From a virus (taxonomy: Duplodnaviria > Heunggongvirae > Uroviricota > Caudoviricetes): a stretch of DNA of 64,000 nt. A program made the translations under genes and the position numbers. The notes beneath the pieces are model-generated. The model worked only from the letters and a program-made list of their open reading frames with translations, did not search any database and had not been told where the DNA came from. This document shows, piece after piece, positions 7,528 to 50,905 of this stretch (the first letter of the stretch is position 1; every line of letters begins with the position of its first letter). The DNA lies in the IMG/VR virus record IMGVR_UViG_3300046385_000126, positions 1-64,000 of that record. One strand, written 5' to 3'.

Positions 7528-8082
7528 ATGACCCTAGCATACATTCAACCGACCGCAGGATATTTTGATGAAGACCGTTTGGTCGAGGCATCGAGACAGA
7601 TTAGTGGAATGTATCCTAATCTTGAACAAATCAACTTACGTCGTCCTGCAAGCATTACAGACTCGTATGGGGTTACCTATGGTGCGGGAAGTTTGTACAC
7701 ACCTGAACTTCAACGTCAAGGTGCTTCGGAACACATCTGGACCGATTACATTGGTTTGTTTAAAGACAATTACCTGATCGAGGTTTGTAAGGCAATGGCC
7801 AACACTATGTCGAGTGTGTTTGGTATAGAGATCGGTCGTGCTCGGTTGATGCACGTAGCACCAAAGACCAATCTTACGTTACATACAGATCATGGCGTTC
7901 AGTATCGATTTCATGTTCCCATCGTTACCAACCCAGATGTGTTCTTCGTTACCAATGATGAAGTTGAACGGATGCCAGAGGTTGGCCGGTTATACGTTTA
8001 CCGCACTGACGTTCCACACACTGTCGTAAACGCTTCACGTTCAAAACGTACACACCTTGTTATCTCCGGCTGGAAGAAATGA
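7528..8082 (+). CDS. putative 2OG-Fe(II) oxygenase (aspartyl beta-hydroxylase-like)
   Basis: HTDHGVQYRFHVPIV resembles the HxD...H iron-binding motif of AspH-type dioxygenases. Confidence 0.4.
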   Translation: MTLAYIQPTAGYFDEDRLVEASRQISGMYPNLEQINLRRPASITDSYGVTYGAGSLYTPELQRQGASEHIWTDYIGLFKDNYLIEVCKAMANTMSSVFGIEIGRARLMHVAPKTNLTLHTDHGVQYRFHVPIVTNPDVFFVTNDEVERMPEVGRLYVYRTDVPHTVVNASRSKRTHLVISGWKK

Positions 8083-32479: not shown

Positions 32480-33032
32480 TTCTGAGTGAAAGTAGCTTGC
32501 GATTGCTATCACTCATCCTATTATCGAAGTCATGGTAGATGTCGACGTTGATTAGTATGCACTCACCCTGCTTAAATGTAGCTGTTTTGGCGGGAGTAAA
32601 CTTATCTGGGTCGAAACCTTTCAGTTCTCGTGTGAACGGACCGTCGTTAAACACCTCATACCCCTGGCTGACCGACTCATCATACCAGTTGGTCTTGCAT
32701 TTATCGTCATTTACTTCTAGGTAATAGTTAATACCGAACCTATTACACAGTCCATCTTTGTGTGCAACGTAGTAACTATTCGGTTTAGCGCTCAACATCC
32801 CCGTATGGCGTGTTTTTGTTTTTACTAAGCTGAACGGACTCAGTGTATGGATAAGGTATTCATCGGCAAGAGGCAGTCTTATATGGCCAACCTTCTTTGC
32901 TGATGCCTCTTCATCAAAGAACTGTTTGTTGGCCTGAGCAATGCGCTGGCCAATCTCTATGATGTCTTCCATATTTTCATGAACAATCCTCATGTAGTAA
33001 GGACTGCAGTCTTCGATGATTTCAATTTTCAT
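32421..33032 (-). CDS. hypothetical protein
   Basis: 203 aa. Its start overlaps the radical-SAM gene stop. First gene of the minus-strand accessory operon as read downstream. Confidence 0.45.
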   Translation of the reverse strand: MKIEIIEDCSPYYMRIVHENMEDIIEIGQRIAQANKQFFDEEASAKKVGHIRLPLADEYLIHTLSPFSLVKTKTRHTGMLSAKPNSYYVAHKDGLCNRFGINYYLEVNDDKCKTNWYDESVSQGYEVFNDGPFTRELKGFDPDKFTPAKTATFKQGECILINVDIYHDFDNRMSDSNRKLLSLRTINEGDVYYETARRALFGI

Positions 33033-34473
33033 TGTAGGATCTGTCTAGTAGAATATCGCGGTAGTTGTTTACAGTATCGAGCACTCTAAGTGATAACATA
33101 TCGCTTTCTGGCATTCGTCTATCATCAGCTAAACGTATGCCTAGATTCTTGATAATTGTTGTAGCAAAACCACCCACTCGGTTTCTTTTTGTTGTTTGGC
33201 ATTTGGTTGCTATATCACTACTGAACGATGCTGCCCATTTTCTGTCAAAATTTCCATTGTGCCACACGCCGTCATCCATTGTGTAGTATTTTTGCCAGTT
33301 AAGGTCAAACTCACTTTTGAATGTTTTTTTATCTGATATGTCTATGGTTAGTGGAGATATGGCAAAGCTGTCCAATGGATAATCAGGTGATAACAACCGT
33401 TCAGACCATCCAGCAATAGTGTCTGTGGTTTCATATGGCAATCCAGCAATAAAACTTCCCTCGGTCGAGCATTGAGGCATTAGAGTTTTAAACCTGTGTA
33501 ATTCGTCCTCGATCTTCTCAGGTCGCAATCCTTTGCCTACAGCCTTACTGCTTTCGTAGTTCAGAGATTCGATTCCGAAGAGCGCACCAACCAAACCAGC
33601 ATCCTTTAACATGGTATACTGTTCTGGATGTGCTCTTAGCAGCTCCAACCTAATGTATGCTGTGTACTCAAAGTTGAATGGCAGACTTTGCTTAACATCA
33701 GCCAGCATTGCTAACTTTACTGAGGTGTCGTTGTGTGTATCATCCGCAATAATGTAACTTGTAGTACCACGTTCGTAGTAATTTTTGATTAATTCATTGT
33801 AGATGGTCTGTTTATGCTTTACGTAATCGTTTTTCTTTTTCCCATTCAGCGGATAATTGCAAAACGAGCATTTGAAAATACATCCTCTTGCAATTTCGAG
33901 AACTAGACTTTCCCCATGTCTAATGTTATCATGTGCAATGTATTCGATTGCGCTTGAATTGAAATCAAACGAGGAGTTATGTGTATTGCCATCCAATACC
34001 ATTTTGTTATTGGCGTTTGTTGAATATGTGAAGAATGGATTCTTGCCATCCAACCATTTTAAATACTCAACGATAGATCTATCAGCATATCCAGTGGCCA
34101 GCACGTCAACAAGGTTATGAGATAAGGCTAGTACGTTTGCACCGCCTGCAACGATCTTTGTACTGCTGTTAATCTTTTTTATGTGTTTGAATACTATGTC
34201 CACTCTTCTCAAGTACACATTCGTGTCTGCATCACGGTATGGGTTCAGCCCATGTGTAAAGGTCGTGCTTATACCTACAACCTTTGTAGACTTTCCTACA
34301 CTTGCTGTAATAGCAGAAAGCAAATCATTAATTGGTAGTTGTGAAAAGAAGTCAACTATTTGACAGCTATAGTTGGCTGATCTGATTTCTGTTGCAAGAC
34401 GGTATGCACCAGCGGTCCTCATTCCAAATGAGGCTTCAGACAGGATCACGACGTCTGCGTTAGACTGTATCAT
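33022..34473 (-). CDS. radical SAM enzyme with an N-terminal B12-binding-like domain
   Basis: IARGCIFKCSFCNY gives the CxxxCxxC cluster motif. The first ~130 aa are Rossmann-like, as in class B radical SAM enzymes. Confidence 0.65.
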   Translation of the reverse strand: MIQSNADVVILSEASFGMRTAGAYRLATEIRSANYSCQIVDFFSQLPINDLLSAITASVGKSTKVVGISTTFTHGLNPYRDADTNVYLRRVDIVFKHIKKINSSTKIVAGGANVLALSHNLVDVLATGYADRSIVEYLKWLDGKNPFFTYSTNANNKMVLDGNTHNSSFDFNSSAIEYIAHDNIRHGESLVLEIARGCIFKCSFCNYPLNGKKKNDYVKHKQTIYNELIKNYYERGTTSYIIADDTHNDTSVKLAMLADVKQSLPFNFEYTAYIRLELLRAHPEQYTMLKDAGLVGALFGIESLNYESSKAVGKGLRPEKIEDELHRFKTLMPQCSTEGSFIAGLPYETTDTIAGWSERLLSPDYPLDSFAISPLTIDISDKKTFKSEFDLNWQKYYTMDDGVWHNGNFDRKWAASFSSDIATKCQTTKRNRVGGFATTIIKNLGIRLADDRRMPESDMLSLRVLDTVNNYRDILLDRSYNEN

Positions 34474-35496: not shown

Positions 35497-36687
35497 CTAT
35501 ACGTTGAGCGTAAACAATTTTGTAGTTATCATCTGAAGACCTACCATTCTACCATTAGCATCTACAGTTTTGAATTGAGGGCTAATACCGTCAGACAGAT
35601 CGTTGAGTTTATATATTAGTTTATTGTTTATGTGTTTAAACTCGTCTGATGTATACAGATAGTGAAACCACGGATGGTATATTTTGTTAAAGTTGTCTGG
35701 TTTCGCTACTTGGAACGTATTCTGGTCCCAGTTTGGATAACAGACTGAATTAACCACTTTATCAAACTCAAAAAACATTTCGAGCTTTTTATTATGAGTC
35801 GCAGTCTTCCTTACGTTTAGATCGATCAACCTTTTTAGATGAGGATTGCGTCTTACATAGAATGCAACAGCATGTGCTCTTGCAAGCGTTAGATCAGGAT
35901 AATCAGCAGAGTAGTAAAAGTTTACCCTAGAATCTACTTCTAGTTTATTATGGGAGTGTTGGTTGCCAGCAGCCATAATAGTTAGATCAGGGAAGCAAGT
36001 AGCGAACTTATCTGTGTTTGGATCGTATGTTAGGATCGGCTTGTCGATACCAAAAATATTAGCTACCCGTTTTCCCTTATTTCCATTAGCAATAGCGTTT
36101 TCCGATACGACCTCGCTAAACCCAAAGTTAGCCATTCCAAAGTTATGGTTCTGCTTATACAGCAGATCTTCGGTGATGTTAACTTGCTTTACAGTATCAA
36201 TCCAATCATCAATAACAATCTTTATCTCAGGATGATGTTCTCTTACCCAGTCGAGTTTAGGCTTAATGGAAAAATCCCATTCACTCAACATATTGGTGGC
36301 ACGTCTGTCGTTAATATCTGGTACATACTTGTTAGCATCTACCAAACGTTTGGGCCATCTCACGTAGATTTCATCTAGCTTGATATTGTTCTTTATGAAG
36401 GTTTCGAGAATTGTTGTGCTGTCAACACCACCACTAAAGTTGAGTATCAAGTAATCGTATGTTTCTCGTATCTGCCAAGCCCGAGTCTTGTACATATCTT
36501 CCAAGACGGTGCTCGGATTGTGCTTATACATCTTTAACGATGCATCCCATACCTCATCATAGTAATGGTATGTGACATTAGTCCTGCCCGCTGATGATGC
36601 ATACAACAGCGCTTGCATCTTGCTAGTGAATACCTTAGCTCCACTAGCTGTGTGTGCTTTGTAATAACCCAGCGAGCTGTTTATCAT
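35497..36687 (-). CDS. PP-loop ATP pyrophosphatase family protein (adenine-nucleotide alpha-hydrolase fold)
   Basis: LNFSGGVDSTTILE is an SGGxDS PP-loop motif. Confidence 0.55.
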   Translation of the reverse strand: MINSSLGYYKAHTASGAKVFTSKMQALLYASSAGRTNVTYHYYDEVWDASLKMYKHNPSTVLEDMYKTRAWQIRETYDYLILNFSGGVDSTTILETFIKNNIKLDEIYVRWPKRLVDANKYVPDINDRRATNMLSEWDFSIKPKLDWVREHHPEIKIVIDDWIDTVKQVNITEDLLYKQNHNFGMANFGFSEVVSENAIANGNKGKRVANIFGIDKPILTYDPNTDKFATCFPDLTIMAAGNQHSHNKLEVDSRVNFYYSADYPDLTLARAHAVAFYVRRNPHLKRLIDLNVRKTATHNKKLEMFFEFDKVVNSVCYPNWDQNTFQVAKPDNFNKIYHPWFHYLYTSDEFKHINNKLIYKLNDLSDGISPQFKTVDANGRMVGLQMITTKLFTLNV

Positions 36688-37562
36688 TTCAGCAACCGCT
36701 TGATAATATCTTTTTCTGTTTTCAGTGCGTTAGGTTTTTTAGTGTCAATGCACGACTCATAACCCATGCCAGTAAAGATCTGTGCCATCTGTTCTTCATT
36801 GAGCTTTTTGTCGATGTATGTCTTTAACTTGGTCGATAATGCCGTATTACCTACAAATAGTTGGCGACTTTTGAACCCATGAATATCAACCCCGACATCT
36901 TTGAACGTAGGGACATCAGGATACTTTTTAAGAGGTTGTGACGCTGCTAGGATTCTAAACTTACCTGAGTCGATGAGAGGTGAAACCAGTGTAACACTAT
37001 CCAAATACCACACGATTGTATCGGCAAGAAGAGCATTCATAACATCAGCAGCACCCTTGAATGGAATCTCGATTTGGTTCTTATCACCTCCTGCGATTAG
37101 TGGCGACACCATACTCTGCACCGTACCAGTTCCTGATGTGCCGTATGGGATTGTTCTGGTTGCTGATGCTGAGCGAATATCTTGAAATCGTTTGATCGGG
37201 CTATCTGCTTTCACAATAACAACACTTGGATCGGTAATTAGACACGACAAGAAAATGAAGTCGTTTTCGATATCGTATTTTGCATTGCCAAGTAGTGTAT
37301 TAGTGACGAGTGCTTGACCACTTACCAGTAGCGTCGGTTCACTCTTTTCATTTGCTACAAGAGTTGCTCCAAGAGCTCCGCCAGCTCCTGGTTTGTTCTC
37401 AACCACAAAAGTGTATTCATCGTTGGTTAGATGAGTCTGCAATTGACGTGCTAATTTGTCTGATGTTCCCCCTGCTGTGTATGGAACGACTATCTTAATG
37501 GTTTCTTTTGCGTATGTGGTAAAGCTAGCAGCTAAGAGTAGAATGGTAATTAGTTTTTTCAT
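36684..37562 (-). CDS. periplasmic substrate-binding protein, TctC/Bug-like
   Basis: Signal peptide MKKLITILLLAASFTTYA. IVVPYTAGGTSD...KPGAGGALG resembles tripartite tricarboxylate transporter binding proteins. Confidence 0.5.
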   Translation of the reverse strand: MKKLITILLLAASFTTYAKETIKIVVPYTAGGTSDKLARQLQTHLTNDEYTFVVENKPGAGGALGATLVANEKSEPTLLVSGQALVTNTLLGNAKYDIENDFIFLSCLITDPSVVIVKADSPIKRFQDIRSASATRTIPYGTSGTGTVQSMVSPLIAGGDKNQIEIPFKGAADVMNALLADTIVWYLDSVTLVSPLIDSGKFRILAASQPLKKYPDVPTFKDVGVDIHGFKSRQLFVGNTALSTKLKTYIDKKLNEEQMAQIFTGMGYESCIDTKKPNALKTEKDIIKRLLK

Positions 37563-40372: not shown

Positions 40373-41791
40373 TTAGGTCAACGCATAGCGATCGACCATA
40401 ACTGCCTTAAGCATGATGCCTTGTGGAGTGAATTGTTCCGTGTTGGAAGACAAGACAGCTTTCACAACTGCTGGGCTAAACCCAGACACAAGCGCCACAC
40501 CGGACTCGTTTGCCTTTACAGGTACGTTGTCCTTAGCGTTCAGGTTCCAGAACACAATGGCAGGAACCTTGTAGCCAGCTTCTGCAAACTTACGCTTGAT
40601 CATCTGCATTGCAGAGTCATCGTACGTTGCGCACTGGTTGAATTGCATGTCTGACAGGATCAGCAACATTTCTGGCATCTCTGCTTGAGGAACGTTTGCA
40701 TCTACAGCAGTCTTCAAGATCTTTGCCATAGCCTTGTTCAGGTTAGTGGACATATTCCAAGAAGACTTAGACATTTGCTGGACCTTCTGAACAATGTTGC
40801 CCTTCAAGTGCAACAGCTCTGGATTGTCAGAGAAAGTCAGGAACGTGTCCTTGAACTTACCCTTGTTCTTATCTGCCAGGTACAAACCAAGCGAGATAGC
40901 AACATCCATACAGGTCACAGAACCAGAACCACCAGCTGGGCAGCTCATAGAGCCGGAAACATCAACCAAAGGCAGAATGTTTGCATCCCCAACGTAGTTA
41001 GGCAGAGCTTCCCATTGCTTTGCAATGTGATCCAACTCGGTCTTACCGTAGTTGTTAGACATATATCCGTTGCACATGCCTTTCAGCACGTCGTATGGAT
41101 ACACAGCCCCTGCGTTAACCTTGACGCCTGCTTCGCCCTTAACGAGCTTAGCAACGTATTCAGCAAACTTCGTACCGTGACGAGTAAACGCCTTCTTGTA
41201 ACGAGCAGATGCTACGGATGGCACATGGTTGTAGTTAATATCATCCCACTTACCAGCACACATTTGCTGTTCGACCACATTCGTCAGATTAACCAACGAC
41301 TTACGGTAGAACTTTGGCGACATGCCGAAGAAGGTACGAATCTCTGCGGCCAGAGGGCCTTGACGAGGTGTCCACTTTGCAGCCAAGCCATTCTTCTCAC
41401 GAAGAGCATCACCTAACATGGTGAAAGCCTTAGCCTTCAGATCCTTATCTTCAAAAACAAAGATGTCATCCCAGCGACCGATTTCTGGCGTCTTGGCCAG
41501 CAATGCTGCTGCAGCATCCTTATCGTGCTTTTCCAGATACTTTAGAATCTGACGGTACAACGCACGTTCACCAGATCCACCACGTGCGTCACGTGCCCAT
41601 TGAGCAATACGCAATGCAACGTCTTTGTCTTCGACGTATGCGGCTACAAAGTCCTTGGTAATATCCTTACCACGGCTTGCACCGATCTTGAAAAACAAGT
41701 CTACACATGCATCTGCAGTGGACTTGCGAGCCTTCATACCGTTAGTGGTACGAGCTTCTTGGTTCTTAACAGCTTCTACGAATGTTGACAT
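40373..41791 (-). CDS. TROVE-like + von Willebrand A protein (Ro60/Rsr-related, DUF2828-like)
   Basis: The N-terminus TTNGMKARKST...LFFKIGASRG resembles the start of a TROVE domain. A MIDAS motif VDVSGSMS lies near the C-terminal third. Confidence 0.55.
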   Translation of the reverse strand: MSTFVEAVKNQEARTTNGMKARKSTADACVDLFFKIGASRGKDITKDFVAAYVEDKDVALRIAQWARDARGGSGERALYRQILKYLEKHDKDAAAALLAKTPEIGRWDDIFVFEDKDLKAKAFTMLGDALREKNGLAAKWTPRQGPLAAEIRTFFGMSPKFYRKSLVNLTNVVEQQMCAGKWDDINYNHVPSVASARYKKAFTRHGTKFAEYVAKLVKGEAGVKVNAGAVYPYDVLKGMCNGYMSNNYGKTELDHIAKQWEALPNYVGDANILPLVDVSGSMSCPAGGSGSVTCMDVAISLGLYLADKNKGKFKDTFLTFSDNPELLHLKGNIVQKVQQMSKSSWNMSTNLNKAMAKILKTAVDANVPQAEMPEMLLILSDMQFNQCATYDDSAMQMIKRKFAEAGYKVPAIVFWNLNAKDNVPVKANESGVALVSGFSPAVVKAVLSSNTEQFTPQGIMLKAVMVDRYALT

Positions 41792-41821
41792 AATGAACTC
41801 CTTTTCAAATCAACAGGTTAA

Positions 41822-41995
41822 ACTTTTTGCTAAGCGGGTGTGCTACCATTACACTACTAGTCGGAATCGAACCGATCCACCTGCGTGGGTTTGCATTAAA
41901 GAGATTGCGGAACTTAACCTAAATTCAGCAGATTGGTTATCATTGAGGCTATCACGGCACTCAGCCAGATTCGGGCTATCTTTATGGTGATTTTT
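41822..41995 (-). ncRNA. candidate tRNA-like / Y-RNA-like noncoding RNA upstream of the TROVE/vWA gene
   Basis: On the minus strand, a T-arm-like GGTGGATCGGTTCGATTCCGACTAG is followed by a D-arm-like GTAGTGTAATGGTAGCACAC. The order is noncanonical, there is no ORF, and promoter-like and terminator-like hairpins are absent. Confidence 0.25.
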
Positions 41996-42223
41996 GTACT
42001 TGCTGTACCCAATCTAAAATCAACAGAGTAGTTTCCTTCTTTTTGTTTTACATGAGAACACGAAACTCATGTCTACCATACGTGTTAACGTATACAACCT
42101 TCAAAGCCCATACAGGCTCCAGTTGCATACCACCTTGGTAAGCCGTTACTGGAATTGCTCCCAGTTAGTTTTGTTTGCTGAACCTACTCTAAAAACTCTC
42201 GATGACTCAATTATCTGTGCTTT

Positions 42224-42748
42224 TCAGATTAGAGTCAACTGTTTAAAAATATCTTCAAGCAAAATAGGTCTAAAATCTGTTTGCTCTACGCAAGCACAGA
42301 AGTACCAAGGATCAGGGTTTACACCCCACTTGTCTTTGACCACATTTGCGTGCAAGTGACCGTGCACGTTAGCCTTGAAGCGGCCTTTGCTTTCCGTGTG
42401 AATGGGAATGTGACTAAAGATGACGTTGTTCATCACATGGTAAGCTCTAATGTCCCGAAAATGTTCTGTATATTCTTCGAGACGGAAAATATCGTGGTTA
42501 CCTTTGATCAGGACCTTGTCGCCATTCAACCTGCTAAGCGTTTTAAGTGCCTTTCGGTTAATAACAACATCACCCAAGTGATAAACCTTGTCGCCAGGAC
42601 GAACAGTTTCGTTCCAACGCTTAATCATTTCTTCATCCATTTCTTCTGGCGTATCCCAGGGACGAAGCTTTGTTCCATCATCACGAAGGAACTTACACAC
42701 ACCGGCGTGGCCAAAGTGTGTGTCGCTAACTACGAATGTCGCAGCCAT
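42224..42748 (-). CDS. calcineurin-like metallophosphoesterase
   Basis: DTHFGH, GD and GNHD motifs. Confidence 0.7.
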   Translation of the reverse strand: MAATFVVSDTHFGHAGVCKFLRDDGTKLRPWDTPEEMDEEMIKRWNETVRPGDKVYHLGDVVINRKALKTLSRLNGDKVLIKGNHDIFRLEEYTEHFRDIRAYHVMNNVIFSHIPIHTESKGRFKANVHGHLHANVVKDKWGVNPDPWYFCACVEQTDFRPILLEDIFKQLTLI

Positions 42749-43821: not shown

Positions 43822-43899
43822 TGGTACCCACAGCGAGATTCGAACTCGCACTGTACAGATTTTGAATCTGTTGCCTCCTACCTATTGCGCTATGTGGGC
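43822..43899 (-). tRNA. tRNA-Leu(CAA), short-variable-arm type with atypical D-arm
   Basis: Same body as 43471-43548 (TAGCGCAATAGGTAGGAGGCA). Anticodon arm ACAGA-TTCAAAA-TCTGT. A73. Confidence 0.55.
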
Positions 43900-43925
43900 A
43901 TTATTAAACAGGATACGTTTTTTAC

Positions 43926-44075
43926 TCTGCTCTACCAACTGAGCTACCCCTCCACTAAACTTATTCATCGAACTCCTCAGACGGTTACTCTAAGTCATAA
44001 CGCTCTTCAAATCGTAGACCAATACGACAGGAATAAGTTTAGTGGAGGGGGATGGAATTGAACCACCGACACGAG
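43926..44075 (-). ncRNA. circularly permuted tRNA-like unit (T-arm + 3' acceptor, 64-nt insert, 5' acceptor + D-arm)
   Basis: On the minus strand GGTGGTTCAATTCCATC then CCCCTCCA, a perfect 20-bp inverted repeat (43947-43966 / 44031-44050), then GGAGGGGTAGCTCAGTTGGTAGAGC. No anticodon arm in canonical position. Confidence 0.3.
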
Positions 44076-44117
44076 GCTTTCAATGCATTTTATGTTGCTG
44101 AATGTATCCTAAAACTT

Positions 44118-44207
44118 TGGCGGTGCGACTGAGACTCGAACTCAGAACCCAGCTTTCGCTAAGCGACAGATTAGCAATCTGCTCTAATACCATTATAGGA
44201 CCGCACC
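44118..44207 (-). tRNA. tRNA-Ser(GCU), type II
   Basis: Acceptor GGTGCGG/TCGCACC, anticodon arm GCAGA-TTGCTAA-TCTGT, long variable hairpin, T-loop TTCGAGT. Confidence 0.7.
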
Positions 44208-44214
44208 AATATTC

Positions 44215-44304
44215 TGGCGGTGTGTGGAGGAGTCGAACCCCGGCCAGCATTCGCCAACCGTCCGCTTTCCAGGCGGATGCTAGAACCATCTAGCTGCACA
44301 CACC
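44215..44304 (-). tRNA. tRNA-Ser(GGA), type II
   Basis: Anticodon arm TCCGC-CTGGAAA-GCGGA, long variable arm, T-loop TTCGACT. Confidence 0.65.
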
Positions 44305-44329
44305 AATAACAGGTTCAATTTTTTACGTG

Positions 44330-44400
44330 CTACCACTACACCAACGCGAAGACCAACTCGCGTCCGGGATTCGAACCCGGCCCCTCTTTTTTACAGAAAG
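44330..44400 (-). ncRNA. permuted tRNA-like unit (T-arm, acceptor-like hairpin, D-arm)
   Basis: Minus strand reads CCGGGTTCGAATCCCGG, ACGCGAG-TTGGTC-TTCGCGT, TGGTGTAGTGGTAGCAC. No CCA. Confidence 0.3.
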
Positions 44401-44439
44401 ATTATTTTTGATTGCTGAAATGAACCTAATGGTCTAATT

Positions 44440-44520
44440 TAACAGGATGCTGTGTTATCGCCGGGAATCGAACCCCTATTACAAACACGGTCCCCAACTG
44501 GACGGCCTGGCAAAAGTGGC
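44440..44520 (-). ncRNA. degenerate tRNA-like element (D-arm and T-arm present, no anticodon arm)
   Basis: GTCCAGTTGGGGAC D-arm-like and GGGGTTCGATTCCC T-arm-like segments sit only ~14 nt apart. Confidence 0.25.
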
Positions 44521-44540
44521 GCCATAAGTTGTTTGCTGTA

Positions 44541-44600
44541 TTCATCCTAAAAATGGCGGGACATTTAAAATTGCAGAATAAATTCTTTACAGAATTATAT
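44541..44600 (-). ncRNA. tRNA-acceptor-like minihelix with CCA
   Basis: GGGACA...TGTCCC + GCCA ends. Internal AATTCT-GTAA-AGAATT GNRA-capped hairpin. Confidence 0.2.
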
Positions 44601-44615
44601 TTTTGTCCCATAACT

Positions 44616-44707
44616 TGGCGGAAAGCAGAGGAGTCGAACCCCATCCCCGTTAGGAGAACCTGGTTTTCAAGGCCAGTCGCAGGACCAACCCCGCTGCATT
44701 ACTTTCC
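44616..44707 (-). tRNA. tRNA-Ser(UGA), type II
   Basis: Acceptor GGAAAGT/GCTTTCC, anticodon loop CTTGAAA, long variable arm, T-loop TTCGACT, CCA. Confidence 0.65.
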
Positions 44708-44715
44708 ATTATTCT

Positions 44716-44979
44716 TTAGACATCCTCATATGTTGCAAGGATGTGTTGCTCTTCAATGATGAAGAACGGAACTGCACCGAACTTTGAAGGTTGGGCTTTG
44801 CTCCAATCGATATACACATAGTCTCCGATCTTAACATCAGCTACATCTGGTCCTGTGGCAATCACTTTACCACGTGGGCTTTCTGATTCGTGCCCTTCAA
44901 CAATAATACCAGATGCAGTAGCATTTGCTGGTTTAATCCGAGCAACTGCGACTTTATTTCCAATAGGAACTAGTGCCAT
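44716..44979 (-). CDS. GroES-like co-chaperonin (gp31-type)
   Basis: LVPIGNKVAVARIKP...SGIIVEGHESESPRGKVIATG...VKIGDYVYID follows the GroES/Cpn10 pattern. Embedded in the tRNA array. Confidence 0.7.
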   Translation of the reverse strand: MALVPIGNKVAVARIKPANATASGIIVEGHESESPRGKVIATGPDVADVKIGDYVYIDWSKAQPSKFGAVPFFIIEEQHILATYEDV

Positions 44980-46823: not shown

Positions 46824-46834
46824 ATAAACAACAG

Positions 46835-46940
46835 GATGCGTTTTTCGAAGGCTATGCGCCTTTGCTCGACCACTGAGCGATCTACGCTTGAAGCGTGGAG
46901 TTGGATTCGAACCAACGTGTCGTTAGACATTGCTGTATGC
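46835..46940 (-). ncRNA. circularly permuted tRNA-like unit (T-arm, 3' acceptor, loop, 5' acceptor, D-arm, CAU-containing hairpin)
   Basis: Minus strand reads GTTGGTTCGAATCCAAC TCCACGC TTCAA GCGTAGA TC GCTCAGTGGTCGAGC A AAGG-CGCATAG-CCTT. The acceptor strands are contiguous and closed by a 5-nt loop. Confidence 0.3.
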
Positions 46941-46950
46941 ATCCTAAAAC

Positions 46951-47105: not shown

Positions 47106-47185
47106 TAAAATAACAGAGTAGTTATGTCGAACATGACAAATTAAAAGTTTGGTGTTCTAATATATTGCTGAACCTACTCTAAAAC

Positions 47186-47349: not shown

Positions 47350-47745
47350 ATTGGCCCCGTTTTTTTGTTGCTCTTACTGAGGTGGACGGGAGTTCCTCAG
47401 GTCAGTACGTACATACGCATTAAATTTGTAAGTTGTAGCGTCCCTCATATCGCTACCATTTTCCCTTGATATAAAGCCGGCAGGGTCAAGATACGTCACT
47501 TGGGTCTTGTCCAGTTTGTCCACCTTTAGAACTAGCACCTTTAGAGTGCTGGGATTCGAACCCAAAACCTTTTGCTGCACAATACCTTCGAAGTATATTG
47601 ATACAACGTGACTCCACTTGCTGACACTTACAAAACTGATTTGTAGCGGGCTCCACACATTGATTGAAGTTGCGCTTCGATGTTTAACGCCATTTAAGGT
47701 TCCGCAACACCCCTTACCCTAGCTCCAGGCTAAGACTACAAAACT
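47350..47745 (-). ncRNA. structured noncoding region of unknown function (no convincing ORF)
   Basis: Contains a T-arm-like GGGTTCGAATCCCAG (47545-47565) without a matching acceptor, plus hairpins such as CTGAGG...CCTCAG. The 94-aa ORF on the minus strand has no start context. Confidence 0.2.
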
Positions 47746-47828
47746 TGGTGCAGCCAGAGGACTCGAACCTCTGTGGCAACTAGTATACGATGCACAGGGC
47801 ATCTGCCTCCTCCATTACTGCATATAGG
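47746..47828 (-). tRNA. tRNA-like (83 nt), anticodon uncertain (CUG or other)
   Basis: T-arm AGAGGTTCGAGTCCTCT, CCA, acceptor GCAGTAA/TGGCTGC. The internal region folds ambiguously. Confidence 0.35.
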
Positions 47829-48082
47829 TTTTTGAGAGGCCAACTATCTTTCTCAAGGACTCGTCGGTTTGTCTCGAATGAGAGAGTTTAAACAACCTTA
47901 CACAATTCTACTGGTGTGTCATGCTCAAGGATAGGGCACTAGAATGTAAGGGACTCATCTCACCGTCTATCTCAAAATTTACGTGTCGTTACGGGTTTTT
48001 ACCGTACCTGAACCTTGTTCCACCGCTCGTTTAAAGACTTACATGGCGATCCCGTGCATTCTCATTACACTATGACAAAACT

Positions 48083-48158: not shown

Positions 48159-48232
48159 TAATACAACAGGTTAGTTTTTGCGGTTTCAATTACAAGTTGA
48201 ATGCTTTATGCTTGCTGAACCTAACCTAAAAC

Positions 48233-48571: not shown

Positions 48572-48648
48572 ATTATACAACAGGATCCGGTTTGCTTTTC
48601 ACAGCCAAAAGTGAAATATTTTGTGTTGCTGAAAGGATCCTAAAAATC

Positions 48649-48722: not shown

Positions 48723-49094
48723 ATACCTTATTATAGTACATTTCCAAACAGGTGTCAACTGTTTGTAACCATTATCCACATCTTAATATAAGGAGCTACC
48801 AAATACCTCAATGGATCTTGATCCTATCTGGCTATGATAGACACTTTTGACAAAAATGCACTATAATAAGGTGTCTAGCTACTCGACCCATCGAGCCCTA
48901 GACTGAGTGGTTACCCTGTCCGTTGAGTTACCTTATGGAAAGTACTCACAACACCCACGATATTCTCAAGATCCCCATGTAAGCGGGGTTTGGGGCTACT
49001 GCCGCTAAGCAGATTCGAGATCGTGCGCGCCCAGGCTATTGTGGTATTGCCAATATACCCACTTTCGATAACGCTCAAAGTGTAAAGCGGGGTT
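48723..49094. other. noncoding spacer with internal direct repeats (GTAA(A)GCGGGGTTTGG at ~48980 and ~49082)
   Basis: No ORF of convincing length. The repeats immediately precede tRNA-Arg(ACG). Confidence 0.3.
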
Positions 49095-49381: not shown

Positions 49382-49533
49382 TTAATCAACAGAATCCGCT
49401 TTTTTTCATTAACAGTGAAATTTTTAAATTGCTGAATGGATTCTAAAACTTAATATTCTTGACTTATCAGAACGGTTAGTCTACCGGTTGAATTCTCGAC
49501 TCTGATTGTGATTCAACAGACCATGTTGAATCT

Positions 49534-50150: not shown

Positions 50151-50905
50151 TAAAGCCACTAAGAGCTAGATTTAGGTTCCCCGCGTACATCCCCAATCAA
50201 TAAAGCATGAGCGTGCCGCCAAGCTATTATAGCTCGGTTGCTCAAGTTTTACTGTAATTGTCGAATGTAGGTTCATTTGTTTGTTTGAAGAAAAATCTGT
50301 TACGTCAAGTATATATCTAAACGACAACGCATGACAACAGATTTTTAAAAATAATTTTGGTTGGTTATTCTGTTACGAGGAAACCAACCGAAACCCTAGT
50401 CAGCGTTTAGGCTGCCAATGCGAACTTTTCATCGTTTGCGTTTACTTTGTTTTGCTTCTTCGGCCGGGAAACCCCAACCCTACGGTTTTCACATTACCGT
50501 GCTGTCCACTCTGTTACTCTTTGCCCTGTCGAATCCATTTCACCCCCATCAGAAGCATTATCTGGTCTATATCTGGCAACCAACCCTTAATTGTGATAAT
50601 GCTTTTGGTGGAGGTGGGGGTTTCGAAACCCCGTCCAGAACACTTTTCTCTTTGCTTCATACAGCAATAAGTGTATATAGTACTTCATATACACGACGAA
50701 GACAACAGGATCAATCTTACTTTTCTCAAAGTATTTACATGAATGCCTAAATACCTTTTCAAGATAGGTTACCAACCTACTATAGGTACTACCAGCCGCC
50801 ACTCATAGCGGACTGTATACTACTTTTGTTAAAAGTCAACAGCTTTCTTTGTTGACAACTCGTTGTTGTTGTGGTACGATAACGTTTTATTCATTTCCAC
50901 AAATT

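What the first reader, a model, noticed from the sequence alone, without database searches (positions are those of the whole stretch)
43926..44075. Circularly permuted tRNA-like unit with a perfect 20-bp inverted repeat joining the acceptor halves
Read on the minus strand, a canonical T-arm (GGTGGTTCAATTCCATC) and 3' acceptor strand (CCCCTCC-A) come first. The matching 5' acceptor strand and D-arm (GGAGGGG-TA-GCTCAGTTGGTAGAGC) lie ~90 nt downstream. The two are connected by a perfect 20-bp inverted repeat (43947-43966 / 44031-44050) around a 64-nt loop. This 3'-half-before-5'-half order is the hallmark of permuted tRNA genes, which are known only from a red alga and a few archaea. It could instead be a recombination scar within the array.
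Basis: seen in the sequence. Interest (0 to 1): 0.7.

Follow-up and report, generated by a model that had tools for sequence, protein, structure and literature searches.

The report
Phage tRNA-mimic Y-like RNA gene
The "permuted tRNA" is real, but it is one of about eleven small structured RNA genes in this phage's tRNA array that carry tRNA look-alike parts on a shared handle, next to a gene for a Ro60-like RNA-binding protein, and that handle closely resembles an orphan RNA class so far reported only from social amoebae.

Summary
On the minus strand a T arm and 3' acceptor strand precede the 5' acceptor strand and D arm, joined by a perfect 20-bp helix around a 64-nt loop. It is neither a scar nor a translating permuted tRNA. 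The full unit is 43907-44109(-). Its ends pair (GGAUAC/GUAUCC) and flank a conserved handle: UUUAG-stem-AUUCAGCAA ... A-rich-stem'-CUGUU. The window holds 11 such units, all on the minus strand. Three lie directly upstream of a 472-aa DUF2828/DUF7788 protein whose predicted fold matches Ro60. Syntenic orthologues keep the long acceptor helix through compensatory changes. A family covariance model built without window sequences scores the unit 70 bits (E 9e-12). CAGCAA-handle RNAs sit beside DUF2828 genes in at least eight cultured phage lineages. The topology is that of bacterial YrlA Y RNAs (a tRNA mimic with a closed acceptor stem), but the handle differs. Its best Rfam match is Dictyostelium Class I RNA (40.1 bits, threshold 41.5). 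Short siblings carry anticodon-stem-loop mimics, and the opposite circular permutation also exists. Binding to the Ro-like protein and a decoy or tether function are inferred, not shown.

The parts
43907..44109 (-). Whole unit: a ~203-nt structured RNA gene made of the handle, a tRNA-like module and a long acceptor-arm extension
   Evidence: Frame scan. Family covariance model R1, built without window sequences, gives 70.3 bits, E 9.4e-12, model 1-117/117.
44104..44109 (-). Handle, 5' strand of the terminal stem (GGAUAC), preceded by UUUUA at 44110-44114
   Evidence: Pairs with 43911-43916. The stem covaries in all 11 window units and in A7: 6 of 6 pairs show double changes.
44095..44103 (-). 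Handle motif AUU-CAGCAA, the conserved single-stranded signature
   Evidence: Present in all units. The scan that collected the 505 unique frames required C[AC]GCAA and TG[TC]T, so invariance of those letters is by construction; within the frames the first-motif variable position is A in 91%. In the MAFFT alignments of parsed units the CAGCAA columns are invariant. The motif aligns to the CCUUACAGCAA motif of Rfam RF01414.
44068..44094 (-). Linker with a degenerate anticodon-arm remnant. CUC at 44075-44073 can pair with GAG at 43927-43925 (tRNA positions 41-43/27-29). GUGUC at 44072-44068 is the 5-nt variable loop.
   Evidence: Read from the sequence. Nearly identical in orthologue L165.
44051..44067 (-). 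T arm (GGUGG UUCAAUU CCAUC)
   Evidence: T stem is 100% paired, with 4 of 5 pairs showing double changes across the family.
44031..44050 (-). 3' acceptor strand CCCCUCC (44050-44044), then A and a 12-nt extension strand
   Evidence: Perfect 20-bp inverted repeat. 7 pairs with changes on both sides versus L165.
43967..44030 (-). 64-nt loop with two small hairpins. It is fast-evolving: the equivalent is 15-111 nt in orthologues.
43947..43966 (-). Extension strand (43966-43955), U (43954) and 5' acceptor strand GGAGGGG (43953-43947)
43929..43946 (-). UA (tRNA positions 8-9) and D arm GCUC AGUUGGUA GAGC
43917..43928 (-). A26, GAG and the A-rich strand (UAAAAAAC) of the handle's internal loop
   Evidence: A-rich 3' segment is conserved in the family.
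43907..43916 (-). Handle, 3' strand of the terminal stem (GUAUCC) and UGUU tail
44308..44426 (-). Sibling unit: handle plus permuted tRNA-like module (acceptor stem ACGCGAG/UUCGCGU capped by a 6-nt loop)
   Evidence: R1 gives 59.4 bits.
46830..46944 (-). Sibling unit: handle plus permuted tRNA-like module
   Evidence: R1 gives 62.4 bits. Rfam YrlA gives 25.1 bits over the full model, below threshold.
44441..44547 (-). Sibling unit with a T-arm-containing payload of unclear fold
49388..49443 (-). Short sibling: handle plus an anticodon-stem-loop mimic (UUUCA CUGUUAA UGAAA)
   Evidence: Rfam RF01414 Dicty_Class_I_RNA gives 40.1 bits (threshold 41.5), full model.
48579..48640 (-). Short sibling handle unit
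   Evidence: RF01414 gives 23.7 bits.
48165..48226 (-). Short sibling: handle plus an anticodon-stem-loop mimic (UUCAA CUUGUAA UUGAA)
47112..47179 (-). Short sibling handle unit
42022..42189 (-). Sibling handle unit with a long payload
41927..42014 (-). Sibling handle unit (tail UGCU)
41812..41919 (-). Sibling unit (CCGCAA variant) with T arm and D arm but no acceptor stem. It ends 20 nt before the start codon of the Ro-like gene.
   Evidence: R1 gives 31.8 bits. Conserved at the same place in L001-L004.
40373..41791 (-). Ro60-like protein gene (472 aa; Pfam DUF2828 + DUF7788; helical repeats plus vWA), the presumed partner of the handle
   Evidence: Pfam. AlphaFold2 model, pLDDT 70. The Foldseek top three are phage phiLo Ro60 (9kop E 6.5e-8; 9l5y 4e-6) and Xenopus Ro 1yvr (1.4e-5), all full length. 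PHROG 850 'RNA-binding protein'.
44118..44207 (-). Upstream tRNA-Ser(GCU). Its CCA end lies 8 nt before the unit's first paired G.
43822..43899 (-). Downstream tRNA-Leu(CAA). It starts 7 nt after the unit's UGUU.

Best explanation
The unit at 43907-44109(-) is a gene for a ~200-nt non-coding RNA of the Y-RNA type with a tRNA-mimic module. The closest analogue is bacterial YrlA. It has two modules.

(1) A handle. It is a 6-bp stem that pairs the RNA's 5' and 3' ends, with UUCAGCAA on one side of an internal loop, an A-rich strand on the other, and a CUGU(U) tail.

(2) A tRNA body. It comprises a T arm, a 7-bp acceptor stem, a D arm and the top three pairs of the anticodon stem. The chain is open at the handle and closed at the acceptor end, so the sequence reads as a circularly permuted tRNA. 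In this lineage the closed acceptor stem continues into a 13-bp extension with a variable loop.

Inferred steps. The RNA is co-transcribed with the tRNA array. RNase P processing of the downstream tRNA-Leu and 3' maturation of the upstream tRNA-Ser release it. The phage's Ro60-like DUF2828 protein binds the handle. The L-shaped tRNA body then presents a tRNA look-alike to tRNA-recognising factors, either as a tether (as Y RNA tethers PNPase to Ro60) or as a decoy for host tRNA-targeting enzymes. Sibling units mount other tRNA parts, mostly anticodon-stem-loop mimics, on the same handle.

Shown here: sequence, fold, covariation, family membership and gene association. Inferred: transcription and processing, protein binding and function.
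For: Anatomy and repetition:
- There are 11 handle units in the window, all on the minus strand and all inside or next to the tRNA array. The terminal stem differs in sequence but pairs in each.

Family scale:
- In 84 related loci (L001-L004, L006-L085), 226 handles lie on the strand of the Ro-like gene and 16 on the other.
- Across all 207 sources scanned later there are 505 unique handles.

Structure:
- In a MAFFT alignment of 10 non-window units the named structure is 100% paired, against 85.8% when partners are shuffled. 10 pairs have double changes. Slid controls give 30-46%.
- In the alignment of 32 model hits, 97.5% of cells pair against 68.7% shuffled. 19 of 22 pairs show double changes.

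Membership of this unit:
- Covariance model R1, built without window sequences, scores it 70.3 bits, E 9e-12, full length.

Selection on the long helix:
- Against orthologue L165 there are 7 compensatory pairs.
- Orthologues L067, L032 and L006 keep a paired extension with different sequences and loop sizes. T-loop U55/G55 co-varies with D-loop G18/A18.

Protein partner:
- The adjacent 472-aa DUF2828/DUF7788 protein has a Ro60 fold.
- CAGCAA handles lie in intergenic DNA beside DUF2828 genes, on the same strand, in phages of Mycobacterium, Escherichia (Felixounavirus), Listeria, Campylobacter, Bacillus, Synechococcus, Cronobacter and Vibrio.

Precedent:
- YrlA has the order V-T-closed acceptor stem-D with ends forming the Ro-binding stem, is encoded within 4 kb of Ro60 on the same strand, and sometimes has a longer acceptor stem (PMC4201824).
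- Phage phiLo Ro60 binds two Y-like RNAs encoded just upstream (PMC12135203).

Co-transcription:
- Spacers to the flanking tRNAs are 8 nt and 7 nt, with no promoter- or terminator-like site between them.
Against: - No experiment: expression, RNA ends and protein binding are all untested.
- The handle lacks the GNCGAAN0-1G motif thought to bind canonical Ro60. Rfam YrlA does not reach threshold: there is no hit on this unit, 25 bits on a sibling, and 37.7 bits on the T-AS-D core only in phage Lolly9.
- The protein is DUF2828, not Pfam TROVE, and no sequence-level match to solved Ro60 was found. The Ro assignment therefore rests on one pLDDT-70 model.
- The handle-gene association is comparative only. 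Another protein could be the ligand.
- Most handles end a few nt before a tRNA or an ORF start, which also fits a cis-acting role.
- The predicted fold pairs UUCAGCA with downstream UGC..UGAA in this unit. That could mask the motif. The pairing is identical in the orthologue, so it is uninformative.
Confidence: 0.7

Rival explanations
1. The handle is a cis-acting element of the polycistronic transcript rather than the binding site of a trans-acting RNP. It could be a processing or punctuation signal (for example for RNase E, G or III), or a 5' leader that stabilises or regulates the downstream tRNA or ORF. On this reading the tRNA-like payloads are processing guides for RNase P.
For: Nearly every window unit ends 4-12 nt before a tRNA 5' end. 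One ends 20 nt before the ribosome-binding site and ATG of the Ro-like gene. That last position is conserved in L001-L004. The units lie inside the tRNA array with no promoters of their own.
Against: In phage Lolly9 the three units lie downstream of the gene, not before a tRNA. The closed-handle permutation places the handle inside a tRNA-like RNA with its own CCA end. The look-alike Dictyostelium Class I RNAs are abundant free-standing small RNAs (PMC7919456). A punctuation signal would not need anticodon-loop mimics or a covarying tRNA body.
Confidence: 0.1
2. The unit is processed at the acceptor end into a two-piece tRNA-like RNA, like permuted tmRNA or M. smegmatis YrlA. RNase P cuts 5' of GGAGGGG, the extension hairpin is removed, and CCA is added after CCCCUCC-A. 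The free acceptor end would then be the functional feature and might be aminoacylated.
For: The acceptor stem is a full 7 bp, the main RNase P determinant. M. smegmatis YrlA with a 7-bp stem is cleaved and receives CCA (PMC4201824). Orthologue L006 reads CCCCUCC-ACCA before its linker. Closed-handle relatives have open acceptor ends with encoded CCA. The weak Rfam match is to permuted tmRNA, 18.2 bits.
Against: In the window unit the -1 and discriminator positions are paired within an uninterrupted 20-bp helix, with no CCA. The extension helix is itself kept by compensatory changes, which argues that it is retained. Most family members cap the acceptor stem with 3-8 nt.
Confidence: 0.1
3. It is a genuine permuted tRNA gene. 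The transcript would be circularised and re-opened to give a normal translating tRNA, as in Cyanidioschyzon merolae.
For: The 3' half precedes the 5' half, and the two are joined at the acceptor ends.
Against: There is no anticodon stem-loop. The RNA ends carry the conserved handle, which is shared with units that have no tRNA body. No bulge-helix-bulge motif was seen. The needed splicing endonuclease/ligase pathway is not known in bacteria (general knowledge). ARAGORN and the Rfam tRNA model do not call it.
Confidence: 0.02
4. It is a recombination scar or decaying remnant of tandem tRNA genes, with no function.
For: It lies in a dense tRNA array with duplicated tRNAs. In phage S13 two tandem chimeras together mimic a permuted unit, so duplication probably did create the permutation originally.
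Against: Syntenic orthologues in at least four other phage contigs conserve the handle, T arm and D arm. They keep the acceptor helix through compensatory changes. 60 unique permuted units covary in every stem.
Confidence: 0.02

Closest known systems
YrlA (Y RNA-like A; Rfam RF02553), the tRNA-mimic Y RNA bound by bacterial Ro60/Rsr (Chen et al. 2014, PMC4201824)
   Same: The order is 5' stem strand, (V), T arm, closed acceptor stem-loop, D arm, 3' stem strand. tRNA-invariant nucleotides are kept. It is encoded on the same strand within a few kb of a Ro60-type gene. Several paralogous RNAs occur per genome. Some have longer acceptor stems. It occurs in phages.
   Different: The handle differs: UUCAGCAA plus an A-rich loop plus a CUGU tail, instead of GNCGAAN0-1G in a bulged helix. 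The partner is DUF2828/DUF7788 rather than Pfam TROVE. Rfam scores are below threshold. There are 11 copies interleaved with tRNAs. Payloads are modular (anticodon-loop mimics, whole tRNAs, both permutations). This unit has a 20-bp acceptor helix.
Dictyostelium Class I RNAs (Rfam RF01414; Kjellin et al. 2021, PMC7919456)
   Same: A 6-bp covarying stem joins the 5' and 3' ends, with a conserved 5' G. The ..UU(A)CAGCAA motif lies directly 3' of the 5' stem strand. The middle is variable. The 3' part is A-rich. The RNA ends in CUGU. Short phage units align to the full model: 40.1, 23.7, 23.1 and 18.5 bits.
   Different: Class I RNAs are eukaryotic, 42-65 nt, and have a DUSE promoter. They have been reported as restricted to Dictyostelia. 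Their known direct binder is the RRM protein Rnp1A. The unit studied here is 203 nt with a tRNA body. All phage hits fall below the 41.5-bit threshold.
Yrl1/Yrl2 of Thermus phage phiLo with phage Ro60 (PMC12135203)
   Same: Phage-encoded Y-like RNAs lie just upstream of a phage Ro60-fold gene. phiLo Ro60 is the best structural match of the window's protein.
   Different: phiLo RNAs use the CGAA motif. No tRNA-array context is reported for them. Binding and PNPase recruitment were shown experimentally there, not here.
Permuted tRNA genes of Cyanidioschyzon merolae and some archaea
   Same: The 3' half is encoded upstream of the 5' half, and the halves are linked at the acceptor ends.
   Different: Those yield complete translating tRNAs through circularisation at a bulge-helix-bulge junction. 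This unit has no anticodon arm, carries a conserved protein-binding-type handle at its ends, and is probably never opened at the acceptor end.
Two-piece (circularly permuted) tmRNA
   Same: The T arm and 3' acceptor strand are encoded before the 5' acceptor strand, with an intervening loop. A real permuted tmRNA lies 6 kb away in the same array.
   Different: This unit has no tag reading frame or pseudoknots. It has a canonical D arm. It scores 18.2 bits against a 47-bit threshold.
T4 stable RNAs species 1 and 2 (rnaC, rnaD) in the T4 tRNA cluster
   Same: They are small stable non-tRNA RNAs embedded in the tRNA cluster of a T4-type phage. rnaC ends with a T arm.
   Different: They have no CAGCAA handle or permuted tRNA body (read from the sequence).

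Membership tests
YrlA (RF02553) | T arm, then a closed 'acceptor' stem-loop, then a D arm, with tRNA-invariant nucleotides, between the two strands of a terminal stem | tested here: met
   Tertiary G18/U55 to A18/G55 co-variation in orthologues.
YrlA (RF02553) | GNCGAAN0-1G motif near the 5' end (proposed Ro60 contact) | tested here: not met
   The sequence at that place is AUUCAGCAAC. It is CAGCAA in the whole phage family.
YrlA (RF02553) | Encoded within ~4 kb of a Ro60 orthologue on the same strand | tested here: inconclusive
   The unit lies 2.1 kb upstream of, and on the same strand as, a protein with a Ro60 fold. That protein is DUF2828/DUF7788 and does not match Pfam TROVE.
YrlA (RF02553) | Score at or above the Rfam gathering threshold (69 bits) | tested here: not met
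   No hit at E<=10 on this unit. Sibling 46830-46944 scores 25.1 bits. The Lolly9 unit scores 37.7 bits on the core only.
YrlA (RF02553) | Bound by Ro60/Rsr in vivo | not testable with these tools
   Needs immunoprecipitation or a gel-shift assay.
Dictyostelium Class I RNA (RF01414) | Short covarying stem joining the 5' and 3' ends, with a 5' G paired to the C of the terminal CUGU | tested here: met
   GGAUAC/GUAUCC followed by UGUU. Covaries across units.
Dictyostelium Class I RNA (RF01414) | 11-nt motif next to the 5' stem strand, with near-invariant T3, C6, C9, A10 and A11 | tested here: inconclusive
   C6, A7, G8, C9, A10 and A11 (CAGCAA) are present, and U lies 1-2 nt upstream. The motif is one nt shorter and position 3 is not always U.
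Dictyostelium Class I RNA (RF01414) | Length 42-65 nt with a variable middle | tested here: not met
   This unit is 203 nt. Four window siblings are 56-68 nt.
Dictyostelium Class I RNA (RF01414) | Rfam gathering score of 41.5 bits | tested here: not met
   The best phage unit, 49390-49443, scores 40.1 bits (E 4.5e-5 for 7.75 kb against all families). Others score 18-24 bits.
Dictyostelium Class I RNA (RF01414) | DUSE promoter about 60 nt upstream; dictyostelid genome | tested here: not met
   The window is phage DNA, and the units sit directly behind tRNAs.
Permuted tRNA gene (C. merolae type) | 3' half upstream of 5' half, joined at the acceptor ends | tested here: met
Permuted tRNA gene (C. 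merolae type) | Complete anticodon arm reconstituted from the transcript's ends, giving a full cloverleaf | tested here: not met
   Only 3 bp (GAG/CUC) remain, and the ends carry the handle. ARAGORN and the Rfam tRNA model make no call.
Permuted tRNA gene (C. merolae type) | Circularisation and re-opening to a mature tRNA ending in CCA | not testable with these tools
   Needs RNA end-mapping.
Permuted (two-piece) tmRNA (RF04321) | tRNA-like domain plus tag reading frame and pseudoknots; Rfam threshold 47 bits | tested here: not met
   18.2 bits, covering model positions 36-95 only.
Ro60 / TROVE proteins (for the neighbouring gene) | Ring of helical repeats followed by a vWA domain | tested here: met
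   The model has helices at residues 2-261 and an alpha/beta domain at 272-464. The Foldseek top three hits are Ro60 structures over ~500 columns.
Ro60 / TROVE proteins (for the neighbouring gene) | Sequence match to Pfam TROVE or to solved Ro60 chains | tested here: not met
   Pfam gives DUF2828 + DUF7788 only. phmmer and hmmsearch against PDB sequences give no Ro60 hit.

The most novel reading that the evidence does not exclude
The CAGCAA handle may be the cognate RNA ligand of the DUF2828 branch of Ro60-like proteins. From my own recollection, which I did not test here, this Pfam family is also present in eukaryotes. On this reading, Dictyostelium Class I RNAs are the eukaryotic members of the same RNA class. 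They are abundant, developmentally important, of unknown mechanism, and have been reported as unique to dictyostelids. They would then be Y-like RNAs. One candidate partner is the uncharacterised pull-down protein DDB_G0281243. Phages would use the same handle as a platform to display tRNA parts (anticodon loops of particular tRNAs, or whole tRNA bodies in either circular permutation) as decoys or tethers against tRNA-targeting host factors.
Probability: 0.35. Interest if true: 0.9.

Novelty: new variant of a known kind. Interest (0 to 1): 0.75.

Why it matters
If the inference holds, it defines a second, widespread Ro/Y-RNA-type system. The protein family (DUF2828/DUF7788, PHROG 850) occurs in 710 of 50,697 cultured phage records, including Felix O1-like, Listeria P100-like and mycobacteriophage cluster L-type (Lumosvirus) phages, and carries only generic names. 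Its RNA partners are unannotated, or mis-annotated as odd 113-121-nt 'tRNAs'.

It would also give a concrete, testable idea for why large phage tRNA arrays carry non-tRNA RNAs: modular tRNA mimics (anticodon loops, tRNA bodies) on a protein-binding handle. That is relevant to the conflict over tRNA-targeting defences.

The near-threshold match of the handle to Dictyostelium Class I RNAs makes an open question directly testable: what do Class I RNAs bind, and what do they do?

The occurrence of both circular permutations, together with a tandem arrangement that looks like the duplication intermediate, is a clean natural example of RNA circular permutation.

Tried and rejected
- blastn of the unit against 50,697 phage records found no match.
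- An exact scan for the T arm plus acceptor strand in viral contigs found none.
- The single metagenome scan returned only two ordinary tRNAs.
- The Rfam gathering scan of 10 related loci was swamped by tRNAs. Only the top 150 rows were shown, so it says nothing about Class I hits.
- MAFFT alignments A2-A4 of units with different loop lengths misaligned the acceptor and D stems. I did not use them for counting. A length-matched seed (A6) solved this.
- The outer-stem table is invalid because of a register bug in my trimming. Use instead.
- Sequence searches of the Ro-like protein against PDB found nothing, and NCBIfam found nothing.
- The afdb50 fold library was unavailable. I therefore could not check for Dictyostelium or plant structural homologues.
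- T4 rnaC/rnaD were examined as possible homologues. They have no handle.
- Promoter reading of the 5' motif and of the 3' 'TGTTGTATAAT': rejected. tRNAs start immediately after, and the two flanks covary as a stem.
- Ribozyme, CRISPR or miRNA readings: only chance-level Rfam hits.
- The Avesson 2011 paper is not held. The identity of DDB_G0281243 could not be established.
- The closed-handle regex scan is noisy, because tRNA-Trp D arms match it. Only hand-checked cases are cited.
Full report
**1. Observation.**

On the minus strand the sequence reads as follows.
- T arm: GGTGG-TTCAATT-CCATC, 44067-44051.
- 3' acceptor strand: CCCCTCC, then A, 44050-44043.
- After 90 nt, the 5' acceptor strand: GGAGGGG, 43953-43947.
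- Then TA and a canonical D arm: GCTC-AGTTGGTA-GAGC, ending at 43929.

The repeat finder confirms the perfect 20-nt inverted repeat 43947-43966 / 44031-44050 with 64 nt between the arms. The repeat consists of the 7-bp acceptor stem, an A:U pair and 12 further pairs. The region folds far better than shuffles (z = -4.8).

It pairs the two outer flanks, so the real unit is 43907-44109.

**2. It is one of a family.**

Reading the neighbouring spacers showed the same frame eleven times on the minus strand between 41812 and 49443:

UUUAG - 5-7-nt stem strand - NUW-CAGCAA - payload - A-rich - complementary stem strand - (C)UGUU

- The stem sequence differs from unit to unit, but it always pairs.
- Two siblings (44308-44426 and 46830-46944) carry the same T arm / closed acceptor stem / D arm order, with short capping loops.
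- One sibling (41812-41919) has T and D arms without an acceptor stem.
- Four siblings are only 56-68 nt long.

ARAGORN and the Rfam tRNA model call none of them.

**3. The neighbouring gene.**

Three units lie directly upstream of ORF 40373-41791(-). The last one ends 20 nt before its ATG.
- The 472-aa product is Pfam DUF2828 + DUF7788 and PHROG 850 'RNA-binding protein'.
- Sequence searches against solved structures find nothing.
- An AlphaFold2 model (pLDDT 70) has N-terminal helical repeats and a C-terminal alpha/beta domain.
- Its three best Foldseek matches, all over ~500 columns, are the Ro60 of Thermus phage phiLo (9kop, E 6.5e-8; 9l5y, 4e-6) and Xenopus Ro (1yvr, 1.4e-5). After those come only isolated vWA domains.

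It is therefore a Ro60-like protein of a sequence family distinct from Pfam TROVE.

**4. Known precedent for the topology.**

Chen et al. 2014 (PMC4201824) described YrlA.
- Its 5' and 3' ends form the Ro60-binding stem.
- Its interior is a tRNA mimic in the order V, T arm, closed 'acceptor' stem-loop, D arm.
- It is encoded within 4 kb of Ro60 on the same strand, and it also occurs in phages.
- Some have longer acceptor stems.
- M. smegmatis YrlA, which has a 7-bp acceptor stem, is cut by RNase P and receives CCA.

A YrlA necessarily reads as a circularly permuted tRNA. The phiLo study (PMC12135203) showed that a phage Ro60 binds two Y-like RNAs encoded just upstream of its gene.

**5. Comparative evidence.**

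The protein has thousands of metagenomic relatives.

*Handle counts and strand bias.*
- In four contigs encoding 76-91%-identical proteins, and in 80 viral contigs fetched with the protein, I found 226 handles on the protein's strand and 16 on the other.
- With further loci the total is 505 unique handles.

*Permuted units.*
- Sixty unique handles carry the permuted tRNA body.
- When partner strands are shuffled among sequences, acceptor-stem pairing drops from 97.9% to 50.9%. The parse that selected these units required 6 of 7 pairs, so the absolute value is biased. The contrast is not.

*Structure test on independent alignments.*
- A MAFFT alignment of ten non-window units (A6) is 100% paired in the named structure, against 85.8% for shuffles and 30-46% for slid partners. 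It has 10 doubly changed pairs.
- Covariance model R1, built from A6, scores the finding's unit 70.3 bits, E 9e-12, end to end.
- R1 also recovers the siblings.
- The alignment of its 32 best hits is 97.5% paired, against 68.7% shuffled. 19 of 22 pairs have double changes. That alignment is fitted to the model, so it leans towards the structure.

**6. Orthologues of this particular unit.**

*L165.* It is preceded by the same tRNA-Ser 3' end.
- Handle, linker, T arm and D arm are nearly identical to the window's.
- The acceptor stem is CCCCUUC/GAAGGGG.
- A 12-bp extension of entirely different sequence still pairs. There are 7 pairs changed on both sides and one changed on one side.

*L067, L032 and L006*.
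- L067 has the same 203-nt architecture, with acceptor stem CUCCUCC/GGAGGAG.
- L032 has a 10-bp extension and a 41-nt loop, and is followed by tRNA-Leu as in the window.
- L006 has a short linker that begins ACCA.

These three share T-loop UGC (G55) and D-loop AG (A18). The window and L165 have UUC and GG. This matches the G18:U55 tertiary contact of tRNA, though it may reflect a single evolutionary event.

That test comes out negative: relatives carry the permuted unit.

**7. Both circular permutations exist.**

In Cronobacter phage S13, two features annotated as a 121-nt 'tRNA-Ser' and a 113-nt 'tRNA-OTHER' lie just downstream of the DUF2828 gene. They are tRNA bodies with these features.
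- An open acceptor stem with encoded CCA.
- A 5-bp anticodon stem.
- In place of the anticodon loop: AAAAAC-GCAAAC-UGACAA-GUUUGU-AUU-CAGCAC. This is the handle closed by a loop.

Close relatives of the window's phage have the same form, with the loop UGUUA. That loop is the two conserved tails joined together (L027, L015, L033).

The finding's unit is thus the handle-open, acceptor-closed permutation of one RNA design. R1 also matches the interval between the two tandem S13 chimeras. That arrangement is what a duplication route to the permutation would look like.

**8. Generality of the RNA-protein association.**

tblastn finds the protein in 710 cultured phage records. Five of these proteins were checked, and all are DUF2828 + DUF7788. 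Some records name the protein 'Ro-like RNA binding protein'.

CAGCAA handles with 7-9-bp closing stems lie in the intergenic DNA next to the gene, on its strand, in the following phages.

| Phage | Handles found |
|---|---|
| Mycobacterium phage Lolly9 | three, one with a permuted tRNA body |
| Felixounavirus EcoM2 | three or four; the gene heads the tRNA array |
| Listeria LP-048 | three; an RtcB-like ligase lies 1.3 kb away |
| Campylobacter Los1 | at least one |
| Bacillus PJN02 | five |
| Synechococcus phage BUCT-ZZ01 | at least two |
| Cronobacter S13 | at least one open-handle unit, plus the two chimeras |
| Vibrio nt-1 | at least one |

Comparable hits on the opposite strand fall inside coding regions and have atypical spacing.

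**9. What the handle resembles.**

Rfam does not place these RNAs in YrlA.
- There is no hit on this unit.
- A sibling scores 25.1 bits.
- In Lolly9 the score is 37.7 bits, covering only the T/acceptor/D core.

Instead, the short units hit Dicty_Class_I_RNA (RF01414) over the full model.
- Unit 49390-49443 scores 40.1 bits, against a threshold of 41.5 (E 4.5e-5 in a 7.75-kb search of all families).
- Unit 48581-48640 scores 23.7 bits.
- The two Listeria phage units score 23.1 and 18.5 bits.

Kjellin et al. 2021 (PMC7919456) define Class I RNAs by these features.
- A 5' G.
- A 6-bp covarying terminal stem.
- An adjacent 11-nt motif, CCUUACAGCAA.
- A variable middle.
- A CUGU end.

They report no Class I RNA genes outside Dictyostelia. 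The phage handle has the terminal stem, CAGCAA at the same place, the A-rich 3' side and the CUGU end.

The held literature does not connect Class I RNAs with Ro or Y RNAs. One of the four pull-down partners of Class I RNA DdR-21 is DDB_G0281243, of unknown function. I could not determine its family. My recollection that DUF2828 has eukaryotic members was not tested here.

**10. Payloads.**

Of 175 unique short units, 118 contain a 5-bp stem with a loop of exactly 7 nt. Shuffled payloads give a mean of 17.5 and a maximum of 32. The loops mostly read C-U-NNN-A-A, which is the anticodon-loop signature. The commonest 'anticodons' are UUU, UGU, UGA, GUU and GGA.

In short-loop orthologues of the finding, the 'V' hairpin is such an anticodon arm. 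Those units are therefore complete tRNAs permuted at position 26/27. The family thus mounts tRNA parts on a common handle.

**11. Mechanism and confidence.**

*Shown.* A conserved, covarying RNA structure. Membership in a large family. Tight, strand-specific association with a Ro60-fold gene across distant phages.

*Inferred.*
- Co-transcription with the tRNAs. The spacers are 8 and 7 nt, and no promoter- or terminator-like site lies between the flanking tRNAs.
- Release by tRNA processing.
- Binding of the handle by the DUF2828 protein.
- Use of the tRNA body as tether or decoy.

I put 0.7 on this package. About 0.9 of that is for 'structured tRNA-mimic ncRNA of this family', and about 0.65 is for the protein partner.

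*Rivals.*
- A cis-acting processing or leader element: 0.1.
- A two-piece RNA opened at the acceptor end: 0.1.
- A true permuted tRNA: 0.02.
- A scar: 0.02.

**12. Verdict.**

Relative to what is known, this is a new variant of the Ro/Y-RNA kind. It has YrlA-like topology on a different handle, with a different Ro-like protein family, an unusual 20-bp acceptor arm, and an unexpected resemblance to Dictyostelium Class I RNAs.

Noticed in passing
window 50316-50728 (-): The phage encodes a circularly permuted (two-piece) tmRNA at the head of the tRNA array. Rfam tmRNA_permuted gives 119 bits and beta_tmRNA gives 106 bits. The ARAGORN tag peptide is ANDEKFALAA, which to my recollection resembles the tags of betaproteobacteria (not tested here) and would then hint at the host.
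   Followed up: no
window 44218-44305 (-) and 44620-44707 (-): Two long-arm tRNA-like genes were missed by ARAGORN. The first passes the Rfam tRNA-Sec threshold (50.9 bits against 47), but its anticodon loop reads CUGGAAA, so it is probably Ser-GGA. The second scores 36.7 bits on tRNA-Sec, has loop CUUGAAA (probably Ser-UGA), an odd D arm and an encoded CCA.
   Followed up: partly
window 47747-47822 (-): ARAGORN reports a tRNA of undetermined identity with a 4-base anticodon (auac). An enlarged anticodon loop could mean a frameshift-suppressor-like tRNA or another tRNA mimic.
   Followed up: no
window 47350-47740 (-) and 47830-48080 (-): There are long spacers in the tRNA array with no convincing ORF and no tRNA. 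One contains a hairpin followed by UG-CAGCAA and a T arm (around 47560-47605), which may be a closed-handle variant. They may hold further structured RNAs.
   Followed up: partly
short handle units in the window (49388-49443, 48165-48226) and in loci such as L198, L181 and L003: Short handle RNAs carry 5-bp/7-nt hairpins whose loops read C-U-NNN-A-A (anticodon-loop mimics). This holds for 118 of 175 units, against about 17 expected from shuffles. The commonest 'anticodons' are UUU, UGU, UGA and GUU.
   Followed up: yes
L086 7896-8016 and 8026-8138 (Cronobacter phage S13, NC_028773): Two features annotated as a 121-nt 'tRNA-Ser' and a 113-nt 'tRNA-OTHER' are tRNA bodies with a CAGCA handle hairpin in place of the anticodon loop. 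In tandem they also mimic a permuted unit (R1 gives 49 bits at 7948-8068), which looks like a duplication intermediate.
   Followed up: yes
L211 6852-8063 (Listeria phage LP-048), L086 12280-13320 (S13), window 42224-42748 (-): RNA-repair-type genes accompany the DUF2828 gene in several phages: an RtcB-like ligase and an HD phosphohydrolase in Listeria, a tRNA nucleotidyltransferase in S13, and a Metallophos_2 phosphoesterase in the window and in Lolly9. This echoes the rsr-yrlBA-rtcBA operon of Salmonella.
   Followed up: partly
window 44716-44979 (-): A GroES/Cpn10-like 87-aa ORF is embedded in the middle of the tRNA array (Pfam Cpn10, E 7e-9).
   Followed up: no
window 48730-48758 (-): A perfect sigma-70 consensus promoter (TTGACA-17-TATAAT) lies inside the array, about 90 nt upstream of handle unit 48579-48640. 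It may start one of the array transcripts.
   Followed up: no
L067 1741-1943, L032 2612-2786, L006 7352-7483 versus window 43907-44109 and L165 153-375: Among orthologues of the finding, T-loop position 55 (U or G) changes together with D-loop position 18 (G or A). That is what the tRNA elbow contact would predict. There are only two states, so this may be a single event.
   Followed up: partly
window 33022-34473 (-), 36684-37562 (-): A radical-SAM protein and a TctC-like periplasmic-binding-family protein are encoded a few kb downstream of the Ro-like gene in this T4-like genome (gp32, gp59 and baseplate genes are present).
   Followed up: no
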